64,000 nucleotides of DNA from an uncultured Chloroflexia bacterium (lineage in GTDB: Bacteria; Chloroflexota; Anaerolineae; CG2-30-64-16): positions 512,001 to 576,000 of the forward strand of contig CAVZDU010000002.1 of NCBI GenBank assembly GCA_963774265.1, in the 5' to 3' direction. Shown piece after piece: positions 46,665 to 64,000 of the stretch. The position numbers were made by a program, and so were the translations under genes. The first letter of the stretch is position 1, and each line of letters opens with the position of its first letter. Under the pieces are notes generated by a model that saw nothing but the letters and a program-made list of their open reading frames with translations, searched no databases and was not told where the DNA came from.

Positions 46665-46676
46665 GCGTTGTCCCGA

Positions 46677-47783
46677 TCAGATGCTGGCGTCTGCCAGGAG
46701 CGCCTGTGATTTGGCATCGAAGATGCGCAGCCCGGCCACGGGGAAGTCCATCCAGATTGGCGCACCGATCTCCATGCGCACCATCGCGCCGACAATCGCC
46801 TTCACATGAAGGTCGCCGCACATCAATGTCAGCAGCGTTTCCTTGCCGAGCACCTCGGAGATGTAGACCGTAGCGGCAATGGCGCCTGGCGTCCCCGCCG
46901 TCACGACCTGCACATCCTCAGGCCGGATGCCCAACACCACCTCAGCTCCCTCTGGCACGCTCGCAAGCTGCCCGCGCAGCACCTCCGGCACTGTGATCTC
47001 GAAGTGGGGCGAAGCGATCTTCCAATCCTGCTTGTCCAGCTTTCCCGGCAAGAAGTTCATTCCCGGATTGCCGATGAATCCACCCACGAAGGTGTTCTTC
47101 GGGTGAAGGTACACGTCCTCGGGATACCCGATTTGCAGAACCCGACCCCCGCTCATGACCACCAATTGATCTGCCAGCGTCATAGCCTCGGCCTGGTCGT
47201 GCGTCACGTACACTGTCGTCACGCCCAGATCACGCTGCAGCCGCTTCAGCTCCGCACGCATACTCACGCGCAACTTGGCGTCGAGGTTCGACAGCGGCTC
47301 ATCCATCAGGAACACTTCAGGCCGGCGGACAATGGCGCGGCCGATGGCGACACGCTGCATCTGACCGCCCGACAGCTGGCGAGGCAGCCGGTCCAGCAGC
47401 TCCCCGATGCCGAGGATCTCGGCAGTCTCATCCACCCGCCGCCGGATCTCCGGGCGCGGAGTGCGCCGCGCCTCGAGCGGAAACGCGATGTTCTTCCGGA
47501 CGGTCATGTGGGGATAGAGCGCGTAGCTCTGGAACACCATCGCGATGTTGCGATCCCAGGCGGGCACATGCGCCACCTCTTTGTCGCCGATGAAGATTTC
47601 ACCCGCGGTCGGCTCTTCCAGCCCTGCGAGCATCCTCAGCAAGGTTGTCTTGCCGCAGCCTGACGATCCAACCAGGACAGTCAGCTTCTTGTCCAGGAAC
47701 TCCAGGGTGATATCCTCTGCAGCCACCGTGTTGCCGAAGTGTTTCGAGATGTTGCGTACAAGGACTTTGGTCATCCAGGACAC
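46677..47783 (-). CDS. CUT1 sugar ABC transporter ATPase (MalK/UgpC-like)
   Basis: GSSGCGKT, MVFQSYALYPH, LSGGQ, DEPLSNLD, TOBE-like C-terminus. Confidence 0.95.
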   Translation of the reverse strand: MSWMTKVLVRNISKHFGNTVAAEDITLEFLDKKLTVLVGSSGCGKTTLLRMLAGLEEPTAGEIFIGDKEVAHVPAWDRNIAMVFQSYALYPHMTVRKNIAFPLEARRTPRPEIRRRVDETAEILGIGELLDRLPRQLSGGQMQRVAIGRAIVRRPEVFLMDEPLSNLDAKLRVSMRAELKRLQRDLGVTTVYVTHDQAEAMTLADQLVVMSGGRVLQIGYPEDVYLHPKNTFVGGFIGNPGMNFLPGKLDKQDWKIASPHFEITVPEVLRGQLASVPEGAEVVLGIRPEDVQVVTAGTPGAIAATVYISEVLGKETLLTLMCGDLHVKAIVGAMVRMEIGAPIWMDFPVAGLRIFDAKSQALLADASI

Positions 47784-47835
47784 CTTTCTGTCGTCACGTC
47801 AAGCCTCAGGCCAGCCAGGTGAACAAGCAATCGAT

Positions 47836-48687
47836 CTAGTACTTCACCGCGCCTGCGGTGAGGCCGCGGATTACCCAACGCTGGAAAATCAGAACGATCA
47901 CGACCACCGGCAACAGGGCCAGCACAACGCCTGCCGAGATCCAGGTCCATTGTTGGCGGAATGCGAACGAGAAGTTCTGGATCGCCACAGGAATGGTCTG
48001 CACATCTTCGATCCCCAAGGTCACGACGGAAGCAAGCATGAACTCACCGTAGGAACCGATGAACGCGAACATGCCGGCCGCGAACATGCCTGGGAGCGAC
48101 AGCGGAATGATGACGCGGAGAAAGATCTGAAACGGCTTATAACCGTCGACTTTGGCGGCGTCCTCCAGTTCCCAAGGCAGCTCAGCGTAATAGCTGGCCA
48201 GCAGCCACGTCGCCAGGGGCACGCAGTAGAACATGTTCGGTATCACCATGGCCGGCAATGACTTGAGCAGGCCAATCGACTTAAGCAGCACAAACGTGGG
48301 AGCGATCGTCACGACAGGTGGAATCATTGCGCCGAGTTGAAGCAGCACCAGCGACTCTACCTTGTAGCGGAAACGCAGCCGGGCGACCGCGTAGGCGGCA
48401 GTGGACGAGACCACGAGGCACAGCGCCGCAGTTGAGAGCGAAACGATGAAGCTGTTGCGCAACGGGATCAGGAAGCCCAGCTCCAGAATAACCTGCCGGT
48501 ACGCGTCCAGGGTCGGCTCTCGCGGCCAGAGACTGATAGGCTTCAGGTACTCAGTCCCCATGGGCTTTAGGGAGGTGCTGAAGACCCAAAAAAGCGGGAT
48601 CATGCAGAACAGGGTGATCACGATCGTGGCCAGAAGCGAAAGCCCACGGTCGATCGTCTTGTTGTGTCGCTGCAGCCAGTCTTTCAT
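47836..48687 (-). CDS. Sugar ABC transporter permease (MalG-like)
   Basis: ELEDAAKVDG EAA motif; 6 TM segments. Confidence 0.93.
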   Translation of the reverse strand: MKDWLQRHNKTIDRGLSLLATIVITLFCMIPLFWVFSTSLKPMGTEYLKPISLWPREPTLDAYRQVILELGFLIPLRNSFIVSLSTAALCLVVSSTAAYAVARLRFRYKVESLVLLQLGAMIPPVVTIAPTFVLLKSIGLLKSLPAMVIPNMFYCVPLATWLLASYYAELPWELEDAAKVDGYKPFQIFLRVIIPLSLPGMFAAGMFAFIGSYGEFMLASVVTLGIEDVQTIPVAIQNFSFAFRQQWTWISAGVVLALLPVVVIVLIFQRWVIRGLTAGAVKY

Positions 48688-49849
48688 GCGCCTTTAAACC
48701 TCAAGTTCTTGCGGATCCGGCTCACGTAGAAGAAACCGAGGATCAGCACGATCACGAACACCACCATGCCGTAGGCCGAGCCCTGCCCGAACTGAGCGCG
48801 GCTGAAGTAGAATTTGTAGGCGAACGAGCTGAGTGTCTCGGTCGTCACACCGGGACCGCCCTTGGTCAGGCCGTAGATCAGATCGAAGGTGCGAATCGCG
48901 TCCATCGAGCGGAACAGCAGCGCGACGGCGATGGTCGGGGCCAGCAGCGGCAGCGTCAGCCGGCGGAAGCGATAGAAGCCGCGGGCCCCATCCACCTTTG
49001 CCGCATCGTAAATGTCCTGCGGTATGACCGCGAGCCCGCCTATCATCAGGATGGCGATCATAGACGACATCTTCCAGACGTCAGCCAGGATCACGGAGAA
49101 CCTGGCAAGCAGCGGATCGACGAGAAAGAGCGGCACTGACTTGAGAAGGCCCCACTGAACGAGCAGGCTGCCCAGACCCACGTCGGCGTTATAAAACCAC
49201 TTCCAGATTGCCGCTGAAATGATCGGCGGAATGGCCCAGGGGATGATGATCATGGATCGCAAGAAACCGGTCCAGTGTTTCCCCACCCAGAACGTCGCCA
49301 TCGCCATCCCTAGCCCGATCCAAAACTCGAAGAACACGGCCACGACCGTGAAGAGAAACGTCCAGCTCAGCGCGGACAGGAAATTCTTGCTGCGAAACAC
49401 GCTGGCGTAGTTGGCTAATCCAATGAAGGTCTCGGAGGTCCATTTGGTCGTGTGATCCAGTTCGTGAAAGCTATAGATGATAGTCTGCGCAATTTGATAA
49501 TAGTAAAAGAGGATGATGCCGACGACCGCGGGCAGCACGAACAGAAGCGCCAGTTCGGGCTCAGTCAACGTGATTCGGCGGAAGCCTCCCAGCCCGAAGC
49601 CAAGCGCCAGGCTTCCAACGATCGCCACGACGGCAGGCACAATGGCAAGCGCCGGCTGCACCACGAACATCAATGCCGCGACTATATACATCGCGCCCAC
49701 CGCTACGATCGCAGATACCGCCAGATTCGACCGCGGCCGCTCACGAGCACCCTTGCGCGCGCGAGCATGACCATTCCGAGGAAAAGGAGGCCCACGATCA
49801 AGACGTAGAAAAGCAGTATGCGAGCTACCGCCGTGAATGTGTTGCTCAA
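48684..49849 (-). CDS. Sugar ABC transporter permease (MalF-like) with extra N-terminal TM segments (frameshift near 5' end)
   Basis: FIGLANY, IPWAIP, IYDAAKVDGA. Confidence 0.9.
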
Positions 49850-49887
49850 AGCATCGACCTTTCCGCTGTCTTAGCAAAAACGGCTCT

Positions 49888-49919
49888 GAGGGCGGAAGGC
49901 GCTCTGGCCTTCCGCCCTC
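49888..49919 (-). terminator. 13-bp stem-loop between the SBP and permease genes (partial terminator or stabiliser)
   Basis: gagggcggaaggc-gctctg-gccttccgccctc; minus strand continues agagccgttttt. Confidence 0.6.
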
Positions 49920-49931
49920 GAGCAGAGCTAC

Positions 49932-51353
49932 CTATTTGGCCAAGGCGTCGATCTGTTCGCAGGCATCATCCAGCGCAGTCTGAGCCGGCTTGAGGCCGGT
50001 CAGGGCGGCATGGATTTCCTCGGACAGAATCGATGTGATATCAGCGAACTTGGGAGACGGAATGGGCGGGATTGCCGTGTCCGCCACCTTCTGAATCAGC
50101 GGCATGTTCGGGTTGTTCTTGATGACGTCTGGGTCTGAGTAGACGTCCATGTGCGCCTGCACCGGGCCCTGCGACAGGTTGAATGCCTTCTGGACCGGGA
50201 AGTCGAACATCACCTCGAGCACCTTCGCGGCCGCTTCCGGGTTGTCCGAGAACTTGTTGATGGAGAAGCCCCAGCCCTCGAAGAAACCCGCGCCCTTGCC
50301 TGGCACGGTGGCCGGCATGGGGATGAAGCCCCACTTGTCGACGATCTTCGACTGCTTCGGGTCATTCAGCCAGAACATCATGTCCTGGCGTCCGGTGTGG
50401 AAGACCGCCTCGCCGCTGACGAAGCGCACCTGCGACTCCTCTTCCTTCCAGGTCAGGGCCTCTTTGGGGGTGATGCCCTTGTCAAACAGGCTCTTCATGA
50501 AGGTGAGCGCGGCCAGGCCCTTCTCGTCGTTCATCGCGCACTTGCCGTCTGCATCGAAGTACGTACCGCCGTAGCCGTTCAGGAACTCGACCCAGCGGTT
50601 GACGAGGACCTGATCCTTCAGCGCGGGCCAGGTCCAGCCGCTCATGCCCGGGTTTGCCTTCATGAGCGTCTTCGCGGCAGCGACCAGTTCGTCGTAGGTC
50701 TCGGGAGGCTTGATGCCGGCCGCTTCGAGCAGGTCTTTGCGATAGTACAGCCCGCCGATGCCGCCCCACCAGGGCCCCAGGGCCAGCAGCTTCCCATCGG
50801 CCGTGAAGGCTTCCAGGTAAGACGGGTTGAGCTTCGCAAGGATGTCTGGGTTGATCAGGTCGTTGAGCGGCATGAGCCAGCCGGCCTGCAGCGAACTCCG
50901 GCAGCCAGTAGAGGCCCATGCCGATCAGGTCGGTCGTGCCGTCCTCAGCCTGGAACCAGGCGAGGTAGTTGTCGCGCCAGGGACCCGCCTCGTACGGCAT
51001 GATGTTGAGCTGAACGTCGATGTTGGGGTACTTCTTGGCGACTTCTTCCCGGATGGCATCAATCGGGGGGCTGGCCGGCCCAAAGGTCTTCTCGAAGTAG
51101 CCGTTGTACGCGATCGTCACGATTTCCTTCTCCACAGGGACCTCGACGGTGACAACCTTCTCGACCTCCTTCACGACCTCTTTGGGAACCTCGACCGTCT
51201 GAATAACGGTCTTCTCGACTTGCTTCTGAACTCGACCACCTGGGTCACGACCTTCTCCACCACCTGGGGAGTCGGTGCGGCGCAAGAGGTCAGCAAGGGC
51301 AGGACGATCATCATCGCGACCAGGACTAGCCGGAAAGTGCTCTTCTTTGACAT
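49932..51353 (-). CDS. Lipoprotein extracellular sugar-binding protein (frameshifted)
   Basis: Lipobox LTSC; VEKVVT/VKEVEKVVTVE repeats; LYYRKDLL, PETYDEL, GWGFSIN. Confidence 0.88.
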
Positions 51354-51487
51354 GTTAGCTCCTCCCTGAAGCTGATCCTTGAAGGACTCAGACTGGCGTA
51401 ACAAGCTTCGGATCTGCCGGAATGCGATGTCTTGGCAGGGGTTCCCTCCTCTCTCTTACCCGGGCGATAGGGCGTGCGGCCTAACCC

Positions 51488-52462
51488 TCATTCCCAGAAA
51501 TTGTGCGGCCAGGCATGCGCCTCCAGCGCAGCCAGGTCGCTGTCGGGCAGCGGCCCCCGGTCGGAGGCGGCTACGTTCTCGCGCGCATGATGTGGTTTGC
51601 GCATGCCAGTAACCACCGTCGTGACGGCCGGGTGGCTCAGGCAGAACCGCAGTGCGGCCTGGGCGAGCGTGTCGCCCTCCTCGCGGAGCAGGAATTTGAG
51701 CCGCTCTGCCCGCTCCGCCACCTCGCGCCGGCGATCGCCGGAGAAGTAGAAATCCAGGAAGCTTCCCTCGGGGAACGTCGTTTCGGGCGTGATCTTGCCG
51801 GTCAACGCGCCTTCGTCGAGCGGGGATTTGACGATGATGCCGACTTGTCTCTTCAAGCGCCAGCGGGAACAGCCCCTGCTCCGGTGCTTGCTCCCAGATG
51901 TTGTACGTGACCTCACAGGCGTCGATCAAGCCGGTGGCGATGGCCTCGTGCGCCATAGTCGGGCTCCAGCGGATAGTTCAGCGACAGGCCGAACGCGGCC
52001 ACTTTCCCTTGCTGCTTCAGTTGCAGAAAGGCCTCTTTCCATTCATCCTGGCCGGCCCATTCGTCCAGCCAGACGTGCAGCAGCTGCAGGTCCAGGCACT
52101 CGACGCCGAGCCGCTTGAGGCTCTTCTCGGTGGACTCGATGATCCAGGATTTCGGAAACACCTCGGCAAGCGGTGTGCCAGGCGCGGCCGGCCACTTGAA
52201 GTTCATCGGATTGACCTTGGTGGAAACGTAGATGCGCCCAGGCCAGCGAGCCACGGCCTGCCCCACGAGCTCTTCGCTCAGGCCATCGCCATAGTTGGGC
52301 GCAGTGTCAACGAAATTGACGCCCAGACTCGAAGGCCGCCCGCATGGACGCCAGCGACTCCTCATTATCGGCCCCGGCCCACCAGGCCCCACCGATGCCC
52401 CAGGCTCCGAACCCAATCTCAGAAACCTGAAAGCCCGTCTTGCCAAGCTGTCGATAACGCAT
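51488..52462 (-). CDS. Aldo/keto reductase (frameshifted)
   Basis: MRYRQLGKTG..VSEIGFGAWG, DTAPNYG.G.SE, SLKRL...DL.LLH. Confidence 0.88.
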
Positions 52463-52514
52463 AGGTTATGCTCCTTATTGCAGTGAAGGATTGTCTGGAA
52501 CGATGCCAGTCTGA

Positions 52515-53970
52515 TCAGCCCGACGTGCGCTGCGCAAAATAGTCGCGCGCTTCGTCGAGAATACGGTCCAGGTCCGCATCTTGAGCCGGCAGTCGTGAAT
52601 GCAGTGCTCCGGCGCCGCCAAGATCTCGGCCAGCTTCGTGCGAGCATGGTCGAGCGCGGTCTTTTTGCCGCCCTCCAACCATTCGGGATAAGAAAGTGAA
52701 TCGGCCGTTGCCGGGATGAACTGCTCTTTGCGCCACCATTTCCGCGTGTGCGGCCGGCTCAGATAGTGACCTGGAATCGGACCGACGGCCTGGATCAGCT
52801 CCACGGCAAGAGCATCCTGGCTCATTTCCTCGCCCGATGCGAAGCGGCCAACCATGCCCGCGATATCGTCATCAAGAATGGCCTGCACAGGGTGGGCCGA
52901 CAGCTCACTCGAGACGCCCAGGTGGAGCAGCATCGAGTTCACACCGGAGAGTGCCGACAAGATTGCGGCGATCCCCTTTTCATAGCCCGCCTGGAACTCG
53001 ATGCCCTTGGCGCTGACATAGCCCGGGCTGCCGTTGCTGAGCGGGAGGCCGTAATGGCTCCACAACTGGTTGAAGATGGCATTGCTGAGCGATGCGCCGA
53101 TCTGGCCGAAGGCCGGCGAACCGGTCCGCATGTTGAGCGGCGCGGAGAAGTGGCCGATCAGCATGCGGTGTCCCGCATGCAAGCACTGGACCAGCACCAC
53201 CATTGCCAGATGCTCCGCGCGTGCTCACGATCACGGAACCGGGCACGGTCGCCGGACCGGTGCCGCCCATCATCGCGCCATCCACCGTGGTCAGCGCGTA
53301 GCCGGCTTCGACAATGCGCCTTGCCGAGGTGATGGCCCCGCTGCCCCAGGTCAGCGGCGGAGAAGAGCCGATGGTCCCGACGATCTCGTGCCCGAGCGCC
53401 TGCGCCATCTGAAAGGTGAAGAGCTCCGCGTCATTGGAGCAGGCGGTCATCTGGTGCTTATCGGAATATTGCATGTGCAGGGCGACGCCCGCAGGGATGG
53501 CCAGGACGTCCGGCATGTCGTCAAAGCCGAAGTAAGGATAGCATCCCAAGTGATCGAGGTGCGGCAAGGCCTGCAGCACCCGAATGCAGTCGATGTACTC
53601 ACGCCGGGTGGGACGGCGCGGCTCCAACGTGTCGAGGTCAATGGTCTGCATGCCGGAACTGTGCGAGAAGTAGAACCGGTCGCCCCCGAGGACCAGGTCG
53701 TTCGCCGGGTTCGGCGCGGCCACGGAGAAAGTCCGGGGCGCCTGCGACAGGCATTCTTCGACCAGCTCGCGAGGAAACCGAACCCGGTCCGCGGCCTCAT
53801 CGACCGCGCAGCCCTGCCGAGCGAGGAAGGCCAGCGCCCAGGGGTCCTCAAACCGGACGCCTGTTTCCCAGAGCACTTGAAGCGTGCCCTCGTGCAGCGC
53901 CTTGATTTGCTCTTCCCCCAACATCTGCAACGATGTCCGCGCGCGTGAAGCCCTGACGAGCCATGCCCAT
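52515..53970 (-). CDS. MttB-superfamily (non-pyrrolysine) corrinoid methyltransferase MT1 (frameshifted)
   Basis: LHEGTLQVL.ETGVRF, VRFPRELVE, MGGTGPATV.G, QAGYEK, VGPIPGHYL..PHT; no in-frame amber codon seen. Confidence 0.85.
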
Positions 53971-53978
53971 CCTTCCTG

Positions 53979-54626
53979 TCAAACCCCCAGCAGCGTGTGC
54001 GCCAGTTTTACGGCGCCCGGCGCTGTCGGGTCATAGCCATCTGCGCCGATCGAACCGGCGAACTCCCGCGTGATCCCTCCGCCGCCCACGATCACCTTGA
54101 CGCGATCGCGCAGGCCTGCCCCCTTCAGCAGCTCGATCACCTTCTTCTGTTCGGCCGCGGTGGTGGAGAGCAGCGCGGACAGCGCCAACAGCCTGGCGTC
54201 GTACCGGTTCACGGCGTCCACGAACTCCTCGGCCTTGATGTTGATCCCCAGGTCATGGACCGAGAAGCCGGCCGCGCGTAACAACGTGGCCACCATGTTC
54301 TTGCCGATGTCGTGGATGTCACCCAATACAGTGCCGATGACGACGACGCCCAGTCCCTCGTGGCGCACCCCGCGGCGGGCGATCTCGGCCTCGAGGATGG
54401 TCGTGCCCGCAGACATCGCCTCTGCGGCCGCGATGAGGTCAGGAAGCCACAGATCACCGCAGGCAAAGCCGTCGCCCACGGCACGAATCGCATCGGTGAG
54501 CGCAGCAAGTGCGACCAACGGGTCGACCTGCTCTTCCACTGCCTGCCTGGCCCAGTCTGCAGCGGCTTCAGGATCGCAATCGGTGACGGCCTGACCCAGG
54601 CCTTGCAGTATCTCGGGTGCTTCCAT
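53979..54626 (-). CDS. Corrinoid (cobalamin-binding) protein of a methyltransferase system
   Basis: Cap domain plus GTVLGDIHDIGKN (DxHxxG), SALL.TT, IVGGG. Confidence 0.93.
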   Translation of the reverse strand: MEAPEILQGLGQAVTDCDPEAAADWARQAVEEQVDPLVALAALTDAIRAVGDGFACGDLWLPDLIAAAEAMSAGTTILEAEIARRGVRHEGLGVVVIGTVLGDIHDIGKNMVATLLRAAGFSVHDLGINIKAEEFVDAVNRYDARLLALSALLSTTAAEQKKVIELLKGAGLRDRVKVIVGGGGITREFAGSIGADGYDPTAPGAVKLAHTLLGV

Positions 54627-54666
54627 GCTTTTCCCCTGCGCTCATCACGGATCCGCGTTAAGCTCG

Positions 54667-55542
54667 TTACTTCATCAATTCCCGCAGGAAATACTTGTGC
54701 TTGCCGAACTGGCCGCCGAAGTTCATGGCCGTCAACGCCAGCACCCCCGGCACCTGCGCGGCTGCAGTCAGCGACAGGCCCATTGCCCTGGCCATGACAC
54801 CGGCACTCGCGCCGAACATCAGCAGGTTCAGCACGGACCCCACGCCTTCCGGAATCTTGGTGTCCTCGATCTGGTCGCGCAGCGATGGGATGTAGTCGAA
54901 TTCGCGGAACACTTGCTCCAGCCCATAGCCCATCGGCGCCACACCGTCCACCGCGGCGATGGCCTCCTTGGCGGCCAGGATCGCGGCCACGGCCGACGCT
55001 GCGTTCACGGCGAAGCAGACGAAGTGGCCATCGGTGCCCTCGACGCTGATCTGGATGGTCTTCTCGTAGGCGAACTCGCCGGTAGTCGTGGGCACCACGC
55101 ACATGACATGGCCGGCCTCGGTGCGCTCCGTATCCTTTTCAGACCACCGCTCCTTGGACATCTCGAACTTGTCATGGAGGTTGACGCGTCACGGTCTGCA
55201 CGCCAGGGATCGCAGCGTCGTAGATCGTCACCGTCGGCACCAGGGAGGCCAGGGCCACGCGCAGCTCGAGCTCCTTCAGCAGATCTTCCCGGCTGGCCGG
55301 GACGTGCGCCATTGAGACAAAGACGCCGGGGCGATGGTCCGGGGTCTCGTGCGGGAAAGGCGGCGCGCTCGATCCCGGCAGTTGAACCTGGAGCCGATCA
55401 TGCTTGACCCGCCTGCGCCGGCAAACTGATTGGCCGCGCCCAGGGCCAGCTCCGCAGTCATGGCGGTGATCAGGACACGGGATACTTCCAGCGTCCAGGC
55501 TTCTGCAAAGGTGTCGTAGACTTCAACCGCATTACCGTTCAT
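54667..55542 (-). CDS. Divergent formylmethanofuran:H4MPT formyltransferase (Ftr)-like protein (frameshifted)
   Basis: N-terminal VEVYDTFAEA...RVLITA and AGIER; C-terminal PGVLALTAMNFGGQFGKHKYFLREL, resembling the Ftr end GV.KISAGNYGGKLG...L.DL. Confidence 0.78.
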
Positions 55543-55561
55543 CAGAATCTCCTTGCGTGAT

Positions 55562-56580
55562 TTATGCGTCGTGAACGACCTGAACCTTCAGGCCCTCTTG
55601 CCGGCGCGCGATCTCAAAACCATCCTGCACCTGTTCCAGCGCGAAGCGATGCGAGATCAAAGGCTTGACCTGCACGACGCCGGCGCGGATCAGGGCCAGC
55701 GCATCCTCGAATTGCGCGATCGTCGAGTCATAGCTGCCGACGAGTCGCAGCTCTTTGTAGTGGATCAGGTCGAGGTCCAGGGTCACCTCAGGCACCAGGG
55801 TCGCGGCAAAGTAGAGCACATGGCCGCGCCGTGCGGCGAGGTCGATGGACTGCTTGAGCACAGCGACGCTGCCCGCGGCGTTGACGACCACGTCCGCGCC
55901 GCGGCCGTCCGAGCACCTCACGCACCGCGGCGAGGACGTCCTGTTTCTGCGAATTGAGCACCAGGTTGACGCCCAGACTGCCCGGCGACAGCCAGCCGGT
56001 GGTCCAGCAGGCCAATCATGACGGTGTACGCGCCGCGATGGCGAAGCATCTGCGCGTGCATCAGGCCGATCGGCCCGTCGCCGATGACCACGGCGACCGC
56101 GCCCGGCGCGACATCAACCTTGGACTGGCCGTTCACGACGCAGGCCAGGGGCTCCGCGAAGGCGGCTTCCTCTAGGGAGACGCCGGCGGGCACCTTCACC
56201 AGGTTGGCGAAGGGATAGGCCGCATACTGGGCCAGGCCGCCCGAGAAATAGCCTGCGTTCTGGCAAGCGCTCCACATGCCGCGGCGGCAGTAGTAGCAGT
56301 AGCCGCAGGGCAGCCGGCCATCGGCCACCACAGCGTCGCCCGCCTTGACGGTGGGCACCTCCGCGCCGGCCTCTACCACCGTCCCAGACAGCTCGTGGCC
56401 CATGCGGAACGGATAGGTGATCGTCCAGCCGCGGGGCTGCTTGCCGACATAGGCATCCACATCGGTGCCGCACACGCCGCAGTAGGCGACCTTCAGGAGA
56501 ACCTCTCGCGGGCCGATCTGGGGCATCGGCATCTCATCGACCTGCATGACCAGCGGCCCGTGAAGCCGTGCGACTTTCAT
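55562..56580 (-). CDS. Zn-dependent (MDR) polyol/alcohol dehydrogenase (frameshift ~55960)
   Basis: CGTD, GHE, CGYCYYC, EPLAC, GDGPIG. Confidence 0.9.
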
Positions 56581-56589
56581 AGCAACTCC

Positions 56590-57977
56590 TTATAGCGCAT
56601 TGAAGTAGGCGGGAAGCTCGATCCCGGCCTCCGTAAAGCGGGCCTGTGCGTATGCAACCGCCTCGCCGACCCACGCTTCTTCGTCAAGGGTTCGTATCCG
56701 ACGATCTTCCATCACGATCTGCCCGTCGCAGATCACGGTGGTCACGTCATGGCTCGAGGCGCAGTAGACCAGGCTGTTCTCGATGCGATTGATGGGCCGC
56801 ATGTGCGTGCCGGTCAGATCGACCAGGATCAGATCGGCCTTCTTCCCGCTGACCAGCGAGCCGATCTCCCGATCCATGCCCAGGGCCTCGGCGCCGCCCA
56901 GGGTCGCCATACGCAGTGTGACGGCCGCGGGCAACACGCGCGGATCCATGGTGGTCACTTTCTGCAGGAACGCTGCAGTCCGCATCGCCTCGAACATGTC
57001 CATGTTGTCGTTGACCGCACAGCTATCGGTGCCCAGCGAAACGACAACCCCGGCATCCAGGAATTTGCGGATCGGCGCGACCCCATCGGCGATCTTCATG
57101 TTGCACTCAGGGTTATGCGCCACCTTCGTGCCGGTCCTGGCGAAGAGCTCGATATCCTCGTCCGAGAGCCAGATGCAGTGCGCGCCGAGCACGTCGGGTC
57201 CCAGCAGGCCGAGGTTGTGCAGGTGCTGGGTGGGGGTGGCACCGAACAGTGACTGGATGTTGTGCCATTCGTACTCGGTCTCGGCGATGTGGATGTGGAC
57301 CGCGACGCCCTCACGGTCCGCGCGGCGGCGCACCTCGCGAATCAGATCGACGCTGCATGAGTTCGGGCAGGCCAGCCCATAGCGGAATGTGACGTCGGCC
57401 GCCAGCCGAGCCGGCGCACCGTTCTCGCAGCGCATCGGCCAGCTTGTACAGGGTCGCATGGGGCAGCAGCACGTCGGGCGAGATCCACTGGTCCGTCATG
57501 GTGAGCGTGTGGACCACCCGGATGCCCGCCTGCTCGAACACATCAACCACGCAAGGATCAGTCGCCCACTCCATATTCAGGATCGTCGTGATCCCGGCCC
57601 GGATGGCGTCGACGCAGCCGAGCCGCGACGAGTGCAATTGCGCAGCATGCGTCCCGCTCAGGTAGTCCTGCACCGCGACCTTGATCCTCGGCACCGACAC
57701 CTGGTCGATCCAGTCCAGCAGGGACAGGTCGTCACGCGTGCCCTTGTGGAAGTTCTGCAGGAAGTGGTGATGGGTGTCGATCAGGCCCGGCATGACTGCC
57801 TGCCTGCGCCGTCGATCACCTTGCGGGCCGGTAAGCGCGGCTCGACCTCGGCGCGCGGGCCGACGGCCACGATGCGCCCCGCGATCGATTGCGACTGCGC
57901 CGTGTTCGATCAGCGGCTGCGCTGTCGTCCAGGGTGACAACCAGCCGGCCCAGGACCAGCAGATCGATCTCAGTCAA
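56590..57977 (-). CDS. Metal-dependent amidohydrolase (MTA/SAH-deaminase/AtzA-like) (frameshifted)
   Basis: MPGLIDTHHH, HIHIAET, AHC, HNPECN, LGTD, GKKADL. Confidence 0.88.
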
Positions 57978-57978
57978 T

Positions 57979-59141
57979 CTACAGCGCCTCGTTCAGCAGG
58001 TCGACGATGTCGGTCACGGTCAGATTCAAGCCGGCCTTGGCCACCGATCGCTTCAGGTTGACGACGCATGTGGGGCAGGAGGAAACCACTTGCGTCTGCG
58101 CCGGCCGCGGCCGCCTGTTGGAGCCGTTCGACCGCCGACATCGCCCGCAAGATCGGTGAACGCGCTGAGCACGCCACCGCCCGCGCCGCAGCACAGGGCG
58201 TGCTCCCGGTTCGAGTACATCTCGACCAGCTCGACGCCCGGCACCGAGCTGATCAGCTCGCGCGGCTCATCGTAGATGCCCATGTGGCGGCCCATGATGC
58301 ACGGATCGTGGTAGGTCACCTTGCGGTTGATCGCATGGAGCTTGCCGGCGGCCAGGCTCGGGAAGAATTCGTGGGTGTGCTGGAAGTTCAAGCCCCGAAT
58401 GAATGCCCAAATCCTCCGGATAGACTCCCGTGAAGGCCCGGTAGCAGCCGGCGCAGGTCGTCAGCACGACGTCCGGCTGGTAGGCCTTGATGCGTTGGCC
58501 AGCGTGTATTCGGCTGCCTGCCTCATGGCGTCCATCTGGCCGATATCGAAGAGCGGATAGCCGCAGCACGCGTCCTCTTCCAGCACCGCGTAGTTCACGC
58601 CCAGCTTGTCGAGCAGTTCCGTCGGTCGACTTGCCGATGCTCTTGATCTTGCGCACGGTCTGGCAGCCCGGGAAGTACAGCACGTCGACCTTGTGCGGGC
58701 GTGACCGCCACCTGTGATGGGACGCGCCGCGCGGGGCCGAAGATGCTGTGATGCTGCACGGTGTTGTCTGCCACCGCGGCCTGGTTCTCCGTCATGATGC
58801 CGGCATCCACCAGGTCCGCACGCAGGGCGGTCCAGATCTCGAAGCAGCGGCATGCCCACCGGGCAATGCTCCCCACAGCTTCCACACAGGGAGCACTGGG
58901 CCAGGTGCTCCAGGAAGGTCTCATCGATATCCACTTCCCCCTCGAGGAGCTGCTGCGCCATATTCACACGCCCGCGGGCGTACTGGGTATCAAACGCCTC
59001 GGTGTAGGGATAGGTCGGGCAAACCCAGTCAACGCCTTTCCAATTCCACACGCGGCAGAAACCGCAGCGGCTGCAATCAAATACTTCCTTGCGCAATGCC
59101 TCGAGGCGGGAGGCAGGGATTCTGCTTGTCGCCATCTTCAT
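57979..59141 (-). CDS. Fe-S/CCG-domain oxidoreductase subunit (GlcF/HdrD-like) (frameshifted)
   Basis: CSRCGFC..CP, CSLCGSC..HCP, YFPGC, CCG, YHDPC..GR, CCGAGGG. Confidence 0.88.
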
Positions 59142-59177
59142 CTCCTTATATCGACGTTATTGCTGCGGCAGTAAGCG

Positions 59178-60531
59178 CTATAACCCGATGACACCCGGGT
59201 TCATGATGTTGTTCGGGTCGAGCATGGCCTTGATGGCCTTCTGGAGCCGCCAGTAGCCGGTGTTCCTGCATGTGCTTCTGCAGATAGGGTCCCCACTGCC
59301 GGCCCTTGGAGTAGGGCGCTCCGCCCAGTTCCAGCGCCCGATCCATCATCTCCTGCATGGCATTCCAGACCTTGGCACGCTCGGCCATGTCGTCCGGGTG
59401 GTGGAACATCAGGCTGACATGCTCGGAACCGTGCGGCTCCGGGAACATCTGCTGAACATAGACCTTGATGTCATGGCGGTCCATGATCCGCTTCATTTCG
59501 TAGGTTGCATCGACCAGCTTATCGAAGGGCAGGAAGTAGTTCACCGCACCTGCGATGCCCTCTTTGAACTCCTCGCCGGTCAGGAACCAGCGGTTGTTCC
59601 AGAACTTCTGCACCCCTTCGGTGCCCAGGCACTCCATGTCCGGGATGCCTGGCGATCAGGCCGCGGATCTTCTTGACCCGCATTTCCACGTCGTCCTCGT
59701 CCCCTTCGACGTTATAGTGGAAGATGATCAGCTCGCCCGGCTTGATGACGGGCACCGAGATGTAGCAGACCAGGTTGTTGATTGCCAGATCGCGGAACAA
59801 GGCTGACGGCCGAAGCCAGGTCCGCGGTCTTGTAGACTTCCAGGAAGAATTTCTCAGGGAAGGGGAAGATGCGCAGCGTACACTCGGTCATGATGCCGAA
59901 CGCGCCTTCAGCGCCGATGAACAGCCCCGTCAGGTCGGCCCCGAGCCCGTAACGGAAGAACACGTCGGAGTTGGATTGGCGGCCGAGCCGGTGCAGACGA
60001 TGTCACCGTTCGGCAGCACCATCTTGAGGCCCAGCGCCTGATCGCCGGAGCTGATGTACTTGATGTTGCCCCAACCGACGCCGGGCCGTGAGATGTGGGC
60101 GCCCGGCGTGCCGGCCATGGCGCCCGAAGGCGCAATGCCGATCTTCCAGCCGCGCTGCTCCAGCGTGTTCATCAGGCTGACGTAGGTGATGCCGGACTGG
60201 CAGGTTACGGTCCCATTGGTCTCATCGATCTCGAGGATCTCGTTCATGCGCAGCATCTCGATCGTGATGCCGCCGCCTGCCGGGGGTGTGGAGCCGGCTT
60301 CCTGGGCCGAGCCGCCCCCGCGTGGCACGATCGGCACCTTGTACTCGTTGGCGATCTTGACGATCTCAGACAACTTCTTCCGTGGTCTTCGGGCCGCACG
60401 ACCAGGTTCGGCATGCTCGGTGGCATGGTGCCGAAATCCCTGGAGTACGCCTTGAGCACAAACGGCTTGTCTGAGACATATTGCGGACCGACGACGTCGG
60501 CCAGGCGCTTGAGGATTGCCCCGTAATCCAT
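59178..60531 (-). CDS. FAD-linked oxidoreductase (GlcD/D-2-hydroxyacid dehydrogenase-like) (frameshifted)
   Basis: PIVPRGGGS, VLPNGDIV, DLTGLFIGAEGAFGIMTE, IKAMLDPNNIMNPG. Confidence 0.88.
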
Positions 60532-60563
60532 TAGTTCATCACTCCTCGTGTTGCGGCTGCAGC

Positions 60564-61333
60564 TCAGTCGCTGAGCCGCCTGGTGGAAAAGACGACTTCG
60601 TGCAGCCCTCGTACGACGCTTTCGGGATCGCTGGCTTGCCAGACGCGGCGGCCGAATGCCACACCCGCCGCGCCTGCGGCGAATCGCATCCCGCGCCACG
60701 TCCAGCGTGTTATCAGCGCCGCCCTCGCTCGGCCCGCCCGCCACGATGATGGGCACGCTGGTCGACGCGACGACCTGCTCGAATGCTGGCCAGAGTTGCC
60801 GCAGTAGTTCGTCTTGACGATGTCGGCGCCGAAGTTCCATGCCGATCCGCGCCGCGTGCGCGATCTGCTCCGGCGCGTAGAATTGATCCGGCGGCGGCAT
60901 CATTTCGGCCAGCACCGGCATGCCCAGCCCGCCGCACTGCTCGATCAGTTCGCCGAGCCACTGCATGAGGTAGGGCTCGCCACCTCGACCAAAGAAGATC
61001 GATACGGCCACCGCGTCAGCATCCAGGCGCAGCGCGGTGGTTGCTGTGACGGCAGGGATCTCCTGCCGGGCTTCAGCACTCAGGCCTGCGCTGACACTGA
61101 CCCGCAGAACAATCCCGACATCAAGTGGAATCAGATCCGACACCTGGCGAAGAAAACCCGGCGTGAGCAATAGGGCCGTGGCGCCTCCGGCGATGGCACT
61201 GGCGACGATCTGGCGTGGGCGATCGATCCCGGCAGACGGGTCCCAGCCAGGGACCATGATCCAGTGGAACCATGAGGCATCGCTTCTCCGGACCAGCCAG
61301 GAGTCTCCGCAATCGTCTTTGCTTTCCGGTCAT
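60564..61333 (-). CDS. Class I (DhnA/LsrF/FbaB-type) aldolase (frameshifted)
   Basis: VPLDHG, ADAVAV, ADIVKTNY (Schiff-base Lys), PIIVAGG, FGRRVWQ. Confidence 0.85.
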
Positions 61334-61369
61334 GTGCCATCCTCCTCGAAGCGTGTATTGGGGTGTAAC

Positions 61370-61492: not shown

Positions 61493-63011
61493 GTCTGCCG
61501 TCCGCGGTCATCTCCGGCGGCGCAACCAGCTTCGCCGCAAACTCGCTGAAATGGCGATAGGTGACGTAGCCGGCGTCGTACGTCGACGCCGAGATCGGGC
61601 TGATGCCTGACCCAGTCGGGAGGCTCGAAGGTGCTCTCGAGCGCAGCAGCCATGTCCGCTCCGTCCAGTGCCTGCTGGTACAGCGCAAACAGGACGCGTG
61701 TGACGGTCTCTTCTTCGGTATAGATGGTCGCATCGCGGCCGCAGACATCGGCAATGATCTGCGTCAGGCCAGGGGTTTTGGTCCCCCCGCCCGCCAGCGC
61801 CAGCTCCTCGATGGGCAGGCCCATCTCGCCGTAGATATCGAGTAGATGGCGCAGGCTGTAGGCGATGCCCTCCATCGCTGCCCGCAGCATGTGCCGGCGA
61901 TCATGGGCCAGGCGCAAGCCATAGAACCCCGCGCGGATCTCATCCGACCAATAGGGGCTGCGTTCGCCGGCCAGGTAGGGAAGAAACACCAGTCCATCTG
62001 AGCCAGGCGCCACTTCGAGGGCCGTGTCGGGTCGCCTCCTCGAAGGTGAGCTCAGCCGACTGGCCCCGAAGAACCTGCTGCTAGCATCCAGACCAACGAT
62101 GCGCCCGTGGTCGAGGATACGCCGCCCGCCAGCCGATAGGGCGGCAGGAATGGGTAGACGTACAGGCGATCTCTGGGGATCGTCCGCCTGCTGCTCCGGC
62201 GCCAAGCGCCATGAAGATCATCGATGAACTGCCCAGCGAGCAGACGACACGCCCGGGGCGTGGCGGGGCTCCGCCGATCAGCGCCGCCACATCGCCCACA
62301 CCGTTGATGATGGCCGGGCCTGGGATTGAGGCCGAGTTCGCCGGCGACGTCGGGCCGCGGCAGTACCGACAACTGCGCATCGGCCGGCAGAATGGGCGGC
62401 AGAGACGCTCGGCGTCCAGACCGGTCAGCGCAAGCCGGTCCAACGCCCAGGTCTTGGTGCGACCAATCCAGCAACGCTGCTCCGCCACACTCGGTCAAAT
62501 CCGTGCCCACCAGCCCGGAAAGCCGGAAGCGCAGATAATCCTTTGGCCACAGGATGGTGCGCACACCTGCGCCAGAATTTCGGGACGATGACGGCTCAGC
62601 CAGAGCAGCTTGGGGAGGGTGTACGTGCTGTTGAGCTGATAGGGCGGCAGTCCCAGGCGCTTCTGCAGCTCCTCTGTCTCCCCGGCTGCTCTGCGATCGA
62701 GCCACAGAATCGTCGGCGGCACCACCCGCTGCGCGGCGTCGAGCAGCACGGCGGAATGCATCTGACCGGTGAATGCGACCGCATCGACCTGATCCAGGCC
62801 CAAGCCACCCTGCTGCAAGTTCTCGCGTCGCTTCCCAGAACGCGGTCCACCACGCCTCAGGGTCGCCCTCGGCCCACCCCGGCTGAGGCGTCGTGTACGA
62901 ATAGCGTCGCACTGCGACCTTGAGCACTTGCCCCGCGTGGTCGTACAGGACCGCCTTGAGCGAGGATGTGCCGACATCGGCCGCCAGCAAAGCAGGGGTG
63001 TGCGGGGCCAT
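61449..63011 (-). CDS. FGGY-family carbohydrate kinase (xylulokinase-like) (frameshifted)
   Basis: DVGTSSLKA, TGQMHS, ILWLDRR, PKLLWL, LPYLAGERSP, EGIAY, GGG. Confidence 0.88.
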
Positions 63012-64000
63012 CAGACAGCCTCGCCGCCGACCTCGACCATGACCTTCATGCCTTCCGCGATTCAGCACGAGCTCGAAGCCTTCATGCAGGCGCTCGAGCG
63101 GCAACAGGTGGGATATCAGCGGTTCCACCAACACCTGGCCCGACTCGATGTAGCGAAGCGCCTCGTGCATGTCCTCAGGCGTCGAGTCAGCCGATCCGGT
63201 CAGGATCAGCTCCTTGTAGTGGATCAGGTTGGGGTCGATGTTCAGCGGCGCAACGGGATACATGCCGGCGAAGATATTCAGCCGCCCGCCCGCGGCCAGA
63301 CACTCGGCCGCCTCGAGCACGAGCGGGGAGGACTCCCACGGCCACCACGGCTGCGTCGACGCCTGCACCGCCGGTGGCCGCCATGACTGCTTCCCGCAGG
63401 TTGGCTGCCTGGCTGTTGATCACCACATCCGCGCCCAGCTTGCTGGCCAGGCTCAGCCGATCGTCGATCAAATCGGCAACGATCACCCGCGCGCCATAGC
63501 GTCTGGCCACCTGCATGTGCATCACGCCGATCGGGCCGGCGCCGATCACCAGCTCGGTCTCGACCGGCGCCAGGTGCAGCAGTCTCTGACCGCGCACGAC
63601 GCAGGCCAGCGGTTCAGTGAACGCGGCGGCCCGGTAGGAGGTGGTGTCTTCGCGGATCGGGAAGATGTTGCGCTGCGGGAGGACCGCATACTCTTCATAG
63701 GCGCCGTTCGGAAAGCGGGGGTGCTGGCAGCGGTTCGAGCGGCCGGTGCGGCAGGGGTCACAGGCGCCGCATTTGACGATGAAATCCGCCATGACTCGCT
63801 GGCCCGGCTTGAGATGCTTGACCTCACTGCCCACTTCCACGATACGGCCAGCTGCCTCATGGCCCATCACTCGGGGCAGCGGAACGTTCTTCTTACCCGC
63901 ATAAACCCGCACGTCCCAGGGGCAGATGCCCACGTAGGCAATCTGCACCAGGACCTCATCCGGCCCGACAGCCGGGCCGGGGTATCTCGCGCTGCTCGAA
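63011..64000 (-). CDS. Zn-dependent polyol dehydrogenase (5' end outside window, frameshifted)
   Basis: GICPWD, GHE, CGACDPC, EPLAC, GAGPIG; ATGA overlap with the kinase. Confidence 0.88.

What the first reader, a model, noticed from the sequence alone, without database searches (positions are those of the whole stretch)
54667..55542. Orphan Ftr-like protein lacking the canonical active-site loop and Glu
Seen: both termini are Ftr-like. In the unbroken C-terminal ORF (54667..55161), the segment corresponding to canonical PFPGGIV.S.SK.GS..Y..L.ASTN is replaced by the much shorter PMGYGLEQVFREFD. Canonical V.EIVI.G reads VLNLLMFG, and GGNF reads DGHF. Known, from my recollection of the M. kandleri Ftr ternary structure: the loop Ser (~209) and the Glu (~245) contact the formyl group. 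No fwd/mch/mtd genes are in the window. Inference: a neofunctionalised Ftr paralog, e.g. a formyl/formimino transferase between the pathway substrate and folate, or a non-catalytic pterin-binding protein.
Basis: partly seen in the sequence, partly recalled or inferred. Interest (0 to 1): 0.75.

Follow-up and report, generated by a model that had tools for sequence, protein, structure and literature searches.

The report
Remodelled Ftr-like enzyme, catabolic operon
This is a real gene for a conserved, uncharacterised branch of the methanogen-type formyltransferase family that has lost the known catalytic residues and sits in a sugar/amine breakdown operon of bacteria that lack the usual cofactor pathway; its apparent breaks are most likely sequencing errors.

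Summary
On the minus strand at 54667..55542 lies an Ftr/FhcD-family gene. The catalytic Glu (Glu245 of M. kandleri Ftr) is Asn, the loop carrying Ser209 is 14 residues shorter, and GGGNF reads GTDGHF.

The deletion is not an artefact: 120 of 120 clade members share it. The three frame breaks most likely are. They are single-base insertions absent from congeners and from soil contigs. The assembly also splits rpoB and rpoC.

The protein is not a one-off. It belongs to a clade found in Chloroflexota, Bacillota and one 'Thermotogae'-labelled MAG, set apart from all other Ftr-like proteins by a long, fully supported branch and under purifying selection (dN/dS 0.11-0.19). It follows a Tdh-like Zn-dehydrogenase in 21 of 21 assessable loci. 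The conserved operon also holds an FGGY kinase, a DhnA-type aldolase, GlcD/F-like proteins, a TRZ/ATZ amidohydrolase, an aldo-keto reductase and often MttB/MtmB-like methyltransferases with a corrinoid protein.

Four of five carrier genomes lack Mch and beta-RFAP synthase.

Verdict: a neofunctionalised, H4MPT-independent Ftr-fold protein. Its reaction is unknown. N-formyl/acyl transfer or hydrolysis is my best guess.

The parts
54667..55542 (-). FtrL gene, an Ftr/FhcD-superfamily variant. In this assembly it is read in three frame pieces (55542..~55382, ~55350..55189, 55161..54667). The stop codon is at 54667-54669.
   Evidence: intact 289-290 aa orthologs in G001, G003 and a 290-303 aa frame in G025
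55380..55381 (-). First extra base relative to congeners (a T in the gene's sense); it shifts the frame.
   Evidence: soil contigs lack one base at 55381
55351..55352 (-). Second extra base; it shifts the frame again.
   Evidence: soil contigs lack one base at 55352
55186..55188 (-). Third extra base; it restores the original frame. Net +3, 876 nt against 873 and 870 nt in congeners.
   Evidence: soil contigs lack one base at 55186
54907..54948 (-). Short loop PMGYGLEQVFREFD, replacing the canonical 28-residue PFPGGIV.SGSK...ASTN loop that carries Ser209.
54808..54831 (-). VLNLLMFG strand. Asn stands at the position of the catalytic Glu245 (Ftr) / Glu252 (FhcD).
55562..56580 (-). Zn-dependent Tdh-like alcohol dehydrogenase directly upstream of FtrL. 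It is split by two single-base insertions here.
   Evidence: upstream neighbour of FtrL in 21 of 21 assessable loci
56590..57940 (-). TRZ/ATZ-type amidohydrolase (deaminase/deiminase-like), split here.
58134..59141 (-). GlcF-like Fe-S/CCG protein.
59181..60576 (-). GlcD-like FAD oxidase, read in several frames here.
60570..61354 (-). DhnA/LsrF/ADH-synthase-like class I aldolase.
61588..63011 (-). FGGY (xylulokinase-like) sugar kinase, split here.
63060..63981 (-). Second Zn-dependent dehydrogenase, read in several frames here.
53979..54626 (-). Corrinoid (B12-binding) protein of the MtgC/MtbC type.
52527..53948 (-). MttB-superfamily methyltransferase without pyrrolysine, split here.
51494..52462 (-). 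Aldo-keto reductase (YdjG-like), with three extra bases here.
46683..51419 (-). ABC transporter: substrate-binding protein (49935..51419), two permeases (48687..49766 and 47839..48729) and an ATPase (46683..47792).
45801..46643 (-). Pterin_bind methyl-THF:corrinoid methyltransferase-like protein; 69% identical to the homolog in locus L019.

Best explanation
The feature is a real gene for a member of a distinct, conserved and so far uncharacterised clade of the Ftr/FhcD superfamily, called FtrL here.

Shown:
1. The window copy differs from intact congener genes by three single-base insertions. These are most likely errors of an indel-prone assembly.
2. FtrL keeps the two-lobe Ftr fold, but the formyl-transfer site is rebuilt. 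The oxyanion-stabilising Glu is an invariant Asn, the loop with Ser209 is 14 residues shorter, and GGGNF has become G-T-D-G-H-F.
3. The rebuilt motifs are invariant, and the gene is under purifying selection.
4. FtrL always follows a Tdh-like Zn-dehydrogenase in a conserved operon. The operon also holds an FGGY kinase, a DhnA-type aldolase, GlcD/GlcF-like proteins, a TRZ/ATZ amidohydrolase, an aldo-keto reductase, a variable importer, and in 16 of 26 loci an MttB- or MtmB-like methyltransferase, usually with a corrinoid protein.
5. Most carriers have no H4MPT genes.

Inferred:
- FtrL is an H4MPT- and methanofuran-independent enzyme of this pathway, which degrades a polar, sugar- or polyol-like compound carrying amine or methylammonium groups.
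- The chemistry I think most likely is transfer or hydrolysis of an N-formyl or N-acyl group on a pathway amine. Asn238 would serve as a permanent oxyanion hydrogen-bond donor, and the new invariant Asp170/His172/Glu208 as acid/base groups.
- The amidohydrolase could generate such an amide from an amidine, as HutF does.
For: Gene and family: Pfam FTR and FTR_C hits; AF2 model with pLDDT 93.7; Foldseek TM 0.88 to 1m5s, 1ftr and 1m5h and 0.83 to 6s6y_D.

The breaks are artefacts:
- Three 1-base insertions are absent in G001 and G003 and in soil contigs of run X1.
- Across 8 operon genes compared with G003, I count 14 single-base insertions against 2 single-base deletions.
- rpoB and rpoC are each read in two frames in this assembly.
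- GC3-phase changes run at 1.07 per kb genome-wide, against 0.44-0.61 per kb in two loci from many-contig assemblies.
- The genome is in 10 contigs but only 84% complete.
- dN/dS of the window's C-terminal ORF is 0.14-0.16, against 0.11 between the two intact congeners.

Rebuilt site: 120 of 120 clade rows have the short loop, Asn and His. Glu245 aligns to Asn238, and Ser209 lies in the missing stretch. The conserved, protonated Glu252 of FhcD 'presumably' stabilises the oxyanion (passages of PMC6926001).

Distinct clade:
- A 100* branch of length 0.95 separates it from the other rows.
- The Formimonas ortholog scores below both NCBIfam cut-offs: 174.6 < 297 and 143.7 < 292.6.

Context:
- 26 loci were recovered.
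- The ADH lies directly upstream in 21 of 21 assessable loci.
- Neighbour families per 26 loci: ADH 23, amidohydrolase 20, AKR 20, kinase 20, aldolase 17, GlcF-like 16, GlcD-like 15, corrinoid 13, MttB 12, MtmB-like 8.

No H4MPT pathway:
- Mch and beta-RFAP synthase are absent from G000, G001, G003 and G025 (the last 98% complete).
- Ca. Formimonas warabiya has a canonical Ftr elsewhere in addition to FtrL.
Against: - No assay, ligand or expression datum exists, so the chemistry is inference only.
- Loss of the Glu and of the loop could equally mean loss of catalysis.
- I could not read the model's coordinates, so I have not shown that Asp170, His172, Glu208 and Asn238 lie close together.
- The operon's 16-kb block has 33 frame-phase changes against a genome mean of 17 (top 1.5% of 339 blocks). 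The region is therefore more disrupted than average, and real decay in this strain is not excluded.
- No reads of the strain itself were available. Run X1 holds only relatives (share 0.06).
- One carrier, Formimonas, does have H4MPT-type genes.
- The genomes without Mch, other than G025, are 75-84% complete.
Confidence: 0.55

Rival explanations
1. FtrL is non-catalytic. It would be a ligand-binding, chaperoning or scaffolding subunit, for example for the adjacent dehydrogenase, that kept the Ftr fold but lost the active site.
For: The catalytic Glu and the Ser209 loop are gone. Adjacency to the Zn-dehydrogenase is strict, 21 of 21 loci, with gaps mostly of 3-50 bp.
Against: The replaced positions are themselves invariant polar residues (Asp170, His172, Glu208, Gln209, Arg212, Asn238). 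That fits a new active site better than a dead one. No fused ADH-FtrL form was found among longer proteins, which is weak evidence.
Confidence: 0.2
2. The window copy is a true pseudogene. The three insertions are real mutations, and the whole operon is decaying in this strain.
For: The operon block is in the top 1.5% of 16-kb blocks for frame-phase changes (33 against a mean of 17). Nearly every operon gene is split, whereas four transporter-side genes at 45792..49766 showed no frame change in tblastn.
Against: The indel spectrum is almost purely +1 insertions, 14 against 2. Mutational decay would be expected to give mixed or deletion-biased indels; that expectation is established knowledge and was not tested here. 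rpoB and rpoC are also frame-split. dN/dS of the window ORF is as low as in intact congeners. There are no in-frame stops or larger lesions in FtrL.
Confidence: 0.12
3. FtrL is an ordinary formylmethanofuran:H4MPT formyltransferase, or an FhcD, with tolerated substitutions.
For: Automatic source names call many members Ftr. Pfam FTR and FTR_C score above their gathering cut-offs. One carrier, Formimonas, has Mch and beta-RFAP synthase.
Against: The Glu is Asn and the loop is deleted in 120 of 120 rows. FtrL scores below the NCBIfam equivalog cut-offs. No Mch or beta-RFAP synthase was found in 4 of 5 carriers. Formimonas carries a separate canonical Ftr beside its Mch. No fhcA/B/C genes flank FtrL, unlike the canonical fhcD of relatives.
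Confidence: 0.03
4. FtrL is the pterin-binding partner of the methyl-transfer system, that is, a methylcorrinoid:tetrahydropterin methyltransferase or a methyl-acceptor binding protein.
For: MttB and a corrinoid protein lie directly downstream in the window. The Ftr fold binds a tetrahydropterin in canonical enzymes (PMC6926001 passages).
Against: A dedicated Pterin_bind methyl-THF:corrinoid methyltransferase homolog is already in the operon. 10 of 26 loci have no MttB- or MtmB-like gene within 10 kb, yet keep ADH-FtrL.
Confidence: 0.03

Closest known systems
Formylmethanofuran:tetrahydromethanopterin formyltransferase (Ftr; PDB 1FTR/2FHJ/2FHK of M. kandleri, 1M5H of A. fulgidus, 1M5S of M. 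barkeri)
   Same: Same length class (about 290-297 aa) and the same two-lobe fold: TM 0.88, 30-35% identity. The N-terminal motifs DTFAEA, ETPDGRPG and the C-terminal NFGG.FG are kept.
   Different: Glu245 is Asn. The loop carrying Ser209 is 14 residues shorter. GGGNF is GTDGHF. Only the second half of Pfam FTR_C is matched. There is no H4MPT/MFR gene context.
FhcD of the bacterial formyltransferase/hydrolase complex FhcABCD (PDB 6S6Y, Methylorubrum extorquens)
   Same: Same superfamily (E 2.2e-21, TM 0.83). Canonical fhcD genes exist in relatives of the same class (G011, G019, G032, G036).
   Different: FhcD keeps the conserved Glu252 (PMC6926001 passages) and lies with fhcA/B/C. FtrL has Asn and lies behind a Zn-dehydrogenase. 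The two coexist as separate genes in G011 and in Ca. Formimonas warabiya.
Uncharacterised divergent Ftr-family representatives P0125 and P0126 (40% and 36% identity)
   Same: They are the rows in the tree with the highest identity to FtrL (40% and 36%) and already carry a D-G-H/L motif in place of GGN.
   Different: They keep a long loop. P0125 keeps the Glu. They match the full FTR_C profile and fall on the canonical side of the 100* branch.
Formiminotransferase domain of FTCD / glutamate formimidoyltransferase (recalled; a functional analogy only)
   Same: It transfers a one-carbon amide/amidine unit from an amine to a tetrahydropterin (THF) downstream of an amidohydrolase-type step in histidine breakdown. 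That logic would fit the amidohydrolase-FtrL pairing.
   Different: No sequence match was seen: Pfam gave only FTR and FTR_C for P0001. Relatedness was not tested structurally here.
MtgB/MtgC/MtgA-type quaternary-amine:THF methyl-transfer systems (context, not FtrL itself)
   Same: The window operon holds an MttB-family protein, a cognate corrinoid protein (MtgC-like, 183.6 bits, below its cut-off) and a Pterin_bind methyltransferase.
   Different: No NCBIfam equivalog cut-off is reached, so the substrate is unknown. No described system that I know of (recalled) includes an Ftr-like protein.

Membership tests
Ftr/FhcD formyltransferase (EC 2.3.1.101) | Two-lobe alpha/beta Ftr fold | tested here: met
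   AF2 model of the intact ortholog has pLDDT 93.7 and pTM 0.91. Foldseek gives TM 0.88 to 1m5s, 1ftr and 1m5h.
Ftr/FhcD formyltransferase (EC 2.3.1.101) | Pfam FTR (PF01913) and FTR_C (PF02741) above the gathering score | tested here: met
   P0001 scores FTR 89.7 bits and FTR_C 63.9 bits, but FTR_C covers only profile positions 76-149. Canonical proteins score about 180-200 bits over the full length.
Ftr/FhcD formyltransferase (EC 2.3.1.101) | NCBIfam naming cut-offs (NF002554, TIGR03119 one_C_fhcD) | tested here: not met
   The Formimonas ortholog scores 174.6 < 297 and 143.7 < 292.6.
Ftr/FhcD formyltransferase (EC 2.3.1.101) | Conserved Glu that stabilises the tetrahedral oxyanion (Glu245 in Ftr, Glu252 in FhcD) | tested here: not met
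   Asn in 120 of 120 clade rows. The alignment to 1ftr puts E245 opposite N238. The role of the Glu is taken from PMC6926001 passages.
   Replaced by the 14-residue-shorter PMG[YF]GLEQ..RE.DY in 120 of 120 rows.
Ftr/FhcD formyltransferase (EC 2.3.1.101) | Occurs with the H4MPT/methanofuran pathway (mch, fae, fwd/fhc, H4MPT biosynthesis) | tested here: not met
   No Mch or beta-RFAP synthase in G000 (84% complete), G001 (75%), G003 (76%) or G025 (98%). Both are present in Ca. Formimonas warabiya. No Fae in G000.
Ftr/FhcD formyltransferase (EC 2.3.1.101) | Formyl transfer between formyl-MFR and H4MPT | not testable with these tools
   Needs an enzyme assay.
FtrL clade (defined here) | GTDGH[FI], PMG[YF]GLEQ[VI][FY]RE, S[IV]LNLLMFG and MNFGG.FG motifs; about 288-296 aa; gene directly downstream of a Tdh-like Zn-dehydrogenase | tested here: met
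   The window translation carries all four motifs. ADH at 55562..56580 lies 19 bases upstream. The window copy is 85% identical to intact congeners.
Glutamate/glycine formimidoyltransferase (FTCD_N) | Sequence or fold match to the formiminotransferase domain | tested here: not met
   Pfam lists only FTR and FTR_C for P0001 at E <= 0.001. No FTCD chain appears among the rows listed by Foldseek.

The most novel reading that the evidence does not exclude
FtrL would be the first Ftr-fold enzyme working outside methanofuran/H4MPT one-carbon metabolism. In this reading it is a formyl (or related C1/acyl) transferase or deformylase. It would take the N-formyl group produced by the neighbouring TRZ/ATZ deiminase-type amidohydrolase from an amino-sugar- or ring-opened-heterocycle-like intermediate and pass it to tetrahydrofolate or water. 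That step would belong to a new catabolic pathway for a methylated, sugar-linked nitrogen compound, whose N-methyl groups go to THF through the MttB/MtmB-corrinoid system. Side associations with Bmp-type binding proteins, xanthine-dehydrogenase-like genes (named from the sequence starts printed, from recall, no family scan) and dihydropyrimidine-dehydrogenase-like genes in some loci hint at a modified nucleoside or pterin/flavin-like substrate.
Probability: 0.2. Interest if true: 0.8.

Novelty: new variant of a known kind. Interest (0 to 1): 0.55.

Why it matters
Ftr/FhcD is treated as a marker of methanofuran/H4MPT one-carbon metabolism, and many sources name these proteins 'formylmethanofuran--tetrahydromethanopterin N-formyltransferase'. 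This clade shows that the name is probably wrong for some Chloroflexota and Bacillota, so metabolic reconstructions that infer H4MPT chemistry from it would be misled. It also marks a conserved, uncharacterised operon of ten or more genes that links sugar-type catabolism with non-pyrrolysine MttB/MtmB methyltransferases. One cultured carrier, Ca. Formimonas warabiya DCMF, makes the function directly testable.

Tried and rejected
- Complex prediction of the adjacent Zn-dehydrogenase with FtrL gave no verdict (score 0.00). It says nothing either way.
- Test of whether the insertions sit at recurrent motifs that are genome-wide error hot-spots. Three context pairs recur among the 14 insertions. 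However, those motifs lie near GC3-phase changes no more often than control motifs (0.26-0.29 against 0.24-0.28). The method is crude, so I make no claim.
- ESM Atlas returned only generic Ftr clusters.
- The search for longer, fused forms found only a canonical FhcA-FhcD fusion.
- Rfam and tRNA scans of the window found nothing.
- The look-up of sequencing runs gave one soil run with a 0.06 share of words. Its contigs are relatives, not the strain, so true reads of the strain could not be checked.
- NCBIfam gave no equivalog for MttB, the MtmB-like protein, the binding proteins or the ECF S component, so the substrate stays unknown.
- Literature: searches found no paper on an Ftr-like protein of this kind. 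The term searches inside PMC9768040 (Formimonas metaproteomics) and PMC10418091 found no mention. Supplements were closed; the protein tables of PMC9768040 may show whether the Formimonas operon is expressed.
- The Acharya 2006 Ftr-coenzyme paper was not found by the search for its PDB codes and Glu245; no look-up by identifier was made.
- The hypothesis that FtrL is the methyl-acceptor methyltransferase was dropped once a Pterin_bind homolog was found in the operon.
Full report
**What is at the coordinates**

The minus strand of 54667..55542 carries an Ftr-like gene. In this assembly it is read in three pieces:
- an 88-aa ORF at 55276..55542, whose first ~52 residues match Pfam FTR positions 1-51;
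- a middle piece in another frame, ending at a stop at 55172, which matches FTR positions 62-109 (23.6 bits, below the cut-off);
- an unbroken 164-aa ORF at 54667..55161, which matches only the second half of FTR_C (profile 76-149, 66.8 bits).

**Are the breaks real?**

A DNA alignment with the orthologs of two genomes of the same genus (G001 and G003) shows a colinear gene with exactly three extra single bases in the window, near 55381, 55351 and 55187. The gene is 876 nt here against 870 and 873 nt in the congeners. In those genomes the frame is open over 289-290 codons. Contigs of a soil metagenome run, which are relatives at 85% likeness or more and not the strain itself, also lack one base at 55186, 55352 and 55381.

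The neighbouring genes are broken in the same way. Across eight operon genes compared with G003, I count 14 single-base insertions, plus insertions of 7, 6 and 2 bases. Against these stand two single-base deletions and one 15-base deletion.

The problem is genome-wide:
- rpoB and rpoC are each read in two different frames.
- GC3-phase changes run at 1.07 per kb, against 0.44 and 0.61 per kb in two loci from many-contig assemblies.
- The genome has 10 contigs but only 84% marker completeness.
- dN/dS of the window's C-terminal ORF against congeners is 0.14-0.16, close to the 0.11 between the two intact genes.

I therefore read the breaks as assembly errors, at about 85%.

One caveat remains. 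The operon's 16-kb block has 33 phase changes against a genome mean of 17. Only 1.5% of 339 blocks reach that number. Real decay in this strain is not excluded, and no reads of the strain were available.

**Is the short loop real?**

Yes. A search of the 5.8-billion-protein collection with the intact G003 ortholog (P0001) gave 1011 hits at E <= 1e-5. The best 120 have 56-94% identity and are 243-312 aa long. Sources call them Ftr or 'hypothetical protein', and the organism labels are Chloroflexi or Anaerolineae.

The motif table covers 164 proteins of 270-335 aa plus four canonical FhcD from relatives. In it, 120 of 120 rows of this clade have:
- the 20-residue segment V.PMG.GLEQ..RE.DY.P where canonical proteins have about 34 residues (PFPGGI..SGSK...ASTN);
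- Asn in S[IV]LNLLMFG where canonical proteins have E in EIVI.G;
- His in GTDGH[FI] where canonical proteins have GGGNF.

The Asp of GTDGH is present in 119 of 120.

Counting along the printed alignment to 1ftr puts Glu245 opposite Asn238, and puts Ser209 inside the part that the variant lacks. [quoted passage not shown] The role of Ser209 I could not check in a paper.

**Fold and place in the family**

An AF2 model of P0001, built on a 62-row alignment, has pLDDT 93.7 and pTM 0.91. Foldseek finds the three archaeal Ftr structures at TM 0.88 and FhcD (6s6y_D) at TM 0.83. Nothing else is credible.

Against 1.84 billion cluster representatives, 362 proteins match at E <= 1e-3. The clade is represented by P0030 (69%) and P0123 (51%). 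Next come P0125 (40%) and P0126 (36%), which keep a long loop. The remaining full-length rows are mostly 26-38% identical, and the shorter fragments score higher.

A quick maximum-likelihood tree of 65 rows puts all 41 other Ftr-like rows in one clade behind a branch with SH-aLRT 100 and length 0.95. The 23 rows I labelled as variant, plus L040, lie on the other side. L040 is a broken copy from another MAG and has a very long branch. One variant row (L036) attaches at the weakly supported base (support 6).

NCBIfam scores the Formimonas ortholog below both Ftr cut-offs: 174.6 < 297 and 143.7 < 292.6.

**Context**

A scan of one genome per species found 26 loci. By their record titles, 20 are Chloroflexota MAGs (labelled Anaerolineae, Anaerolineales, Caldilineales, Caldilineaceae, Chloroflexia or Chloroflexi). 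Four are Bacillota or Clostridia MAGs, one is a MAG labelled Thermotogae, and one is the complete genome of Ca. Formimonas warabiya DCMF.

I clustered the neighbouring ORFs. A Tdh-like Zn-dehydrogenase lies directly upstream of FtrL in 21 of 21 loci where FtrL was called and has upstream sequence; the gaps are mostly 3-50 bp. Counts per 26 loci are:

| Neighbour family | Loci (of 26) |
|---|---|
| Zn-dehydrogenase | 23 |
| TRZ/ATZ amidohydrolase | 20 |
| Aldo-keto reductase | 20 |
| FGGY kinase | 20 |
| DhnA-type aldolase | 17 |
| GlcF-like | 16 |
| GlcD-like | 15 |
| Corrinoid protein | 13 |
| MttB | 12 |
| GntR regulator | 11 |
| MtmB-like | 8 |
| Aldehyde:ferredoxin oxidoreductase | 7 |

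By my reading of the listing, 16 of 26 loci hold an MttB- or MtmB-like gene.

The importer varies. It is an ECF system in Bacillota, a Bmp-type ABC system in some loci, and another ABC system in the window's lineage.

NCBIfam gives only sub-threshold names:
- kinase: xylulokinase-like;
- aldolase: ADH-synthase/LsrF-like;
- amidohydrolase: N-ethylammeline chlorohydrolase / 5'-deoxyadenosine deaminase / HutF-like;
- reductase: YdjG-like.

The window holds the whole operon on the minus strand from about 63981 down to 45801. It includes a Pterin_bind methyl-THF:corrinoid methyltransferase homolog at 45801..46643.

**Cofactor pathway**

Mch and beta-RFAP synthase were not found in the window's genome (84% complete), in G001 (75%), in G003 (76%) or in G025 (98%). 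Fae and a second Ftr are also missing from the window's genome.

Ca. Formimonas warabiya has two Mch genes, a beta-RFAP synthase and a canonical Ftr at about 0.86-0.87 Mb. Its FtrL sits at 3.24 Mb. FtrL is therefore a separate paralog there. In 4 of 5 carriers examined there is no sign of H4MPT.

**How it most likely works**

Shown: the fold, the rebuilt motifs, the purifying selection, the fixed gene context and the lack of H4MPT genes.

Inferred: FtrL is an enzyme of this operon that acts without H4MPT or methanofuran. Canonical Ftr moves a formyl group between two amines through an oxyanion. FtrL carries an amide side chain (Asn238) at the oxyanion position. It also has new invariant Asp170, His172, Glu208, Gln209 and Arg212, and it is usually preceded by a deaminase/deiminase-type amidohydrolase and a dehydrogenase of amino-alcohol type.

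I therefore favour N-formyl or N-acyl transfer, to THF or to water, on a pathway amine, at about 30-35%. A non-catalytic binding role is the main rival, at about 20%. The substrate of the operon is unknown. The gene set points to a polar sugar- or polyol-like compound with amine or methylammonium groups.

**Novelty**

My six literature searches and two in-paper term searches found no description of such a protein. Supplements were closed. I file it as a new variant of a known kind: an Ftr-superfamily clade that fails the family's catalytic and context criteria.

Noticed in passing
G000 contig C7:822-8551 (outside the window): rpoB and rpoC are each read in two different frames in this assembly. 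The rpoB N-terminus lies at the end of another contig (C8:2-577). This is a sign of genome-wide indel errors.
   Followed up: partly
window 48000-64000: The operon block has 33 GC3-phase changes per 16 kb against a genome mean of 17 (top 1.5% of 339 blocks). The transporter genes at 45792..49766 show no frame change in tblastn. The reason for the local excess is unexplained.
   Followed up: partly
window 51493-57754: Indels relative to the G003 orthologs are almost all +1 insertions, and three sequence contexts recur in pairs. A crude genome-wide motif test did not confirm hot-spots.
   Followed up: partly
G041 (Ca. Formimonas warabiya) C1:861894-873562: A Bacillota genome carries a beta-RFAP synthase, a canonical Ftr and an Mch within about 12 kb, plus a second Mch at 262723. 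These are H4MPT-type genes in a dichloromethane fermenter.
   Followed up: no
G011 (same family): C143:35155-45837, C51, C115, C457, C330: This genome has both an FtrL (73% identical, C330) and a canonical fhcD with fhc neighbours. It gave eight Mch matches, several of them split pieces.
   Followed up: no
G000 C2 about 576-588 kb (just beyond the window's end): A GntR regulator, an MtmB-like non-pyrrolysine methyltransferase (70% identical to the operon-linked one of L033), a second corrinoid protein, an aldehyde:ferredoxin oxidoreductase and a DHO-dehydrogenase/Fer4 protein continue the cluster.
   Followed up: partly
P0125, P0126; P0131, P0139, P0160, P0204: These are further non-canonical Ftr-family lineages, with a D-G motif in place of GGN and altered loops. 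P0131/P0139/P0160/P0204 form their own starred clade. Their functions are unknown.
   Followed up: no
L022:12062-15716; also L017 and L019 upstream: Genes that look like the FAD, 2Fe-2S and large subunits of a xanthine-dehydrogenase-type enzyme lie beside the operon in three loci (named from their sequence starts, from recall; no family scan was run). Dihydropyrimidine-dehydrogenase-like and second amidohydrolase genes occur in three others. This hints at an N-heterocyclic substrate.
   Followed up: no
L028:11026-14509 and L029: In two Anaerolineales loci FtrL is followed by three genes that, judged from their sequence starts and from recall (no family scan was run), look like a family-4 glycosidase, a PfkB-type kinase and a URO-D-like protein. 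These loci lack the TRZ/ATZ amidohydrolase and MttB within 10 kb.
   Followed up: no
G008:C9:90885-91374 and L040: The FtrL copies of two other genomes are also broken: stop codons inside the match in G008 (20 contigs, 65% complete) and a very long tree branch for L040. This is the same pattern as in the window.
   Followed up: no
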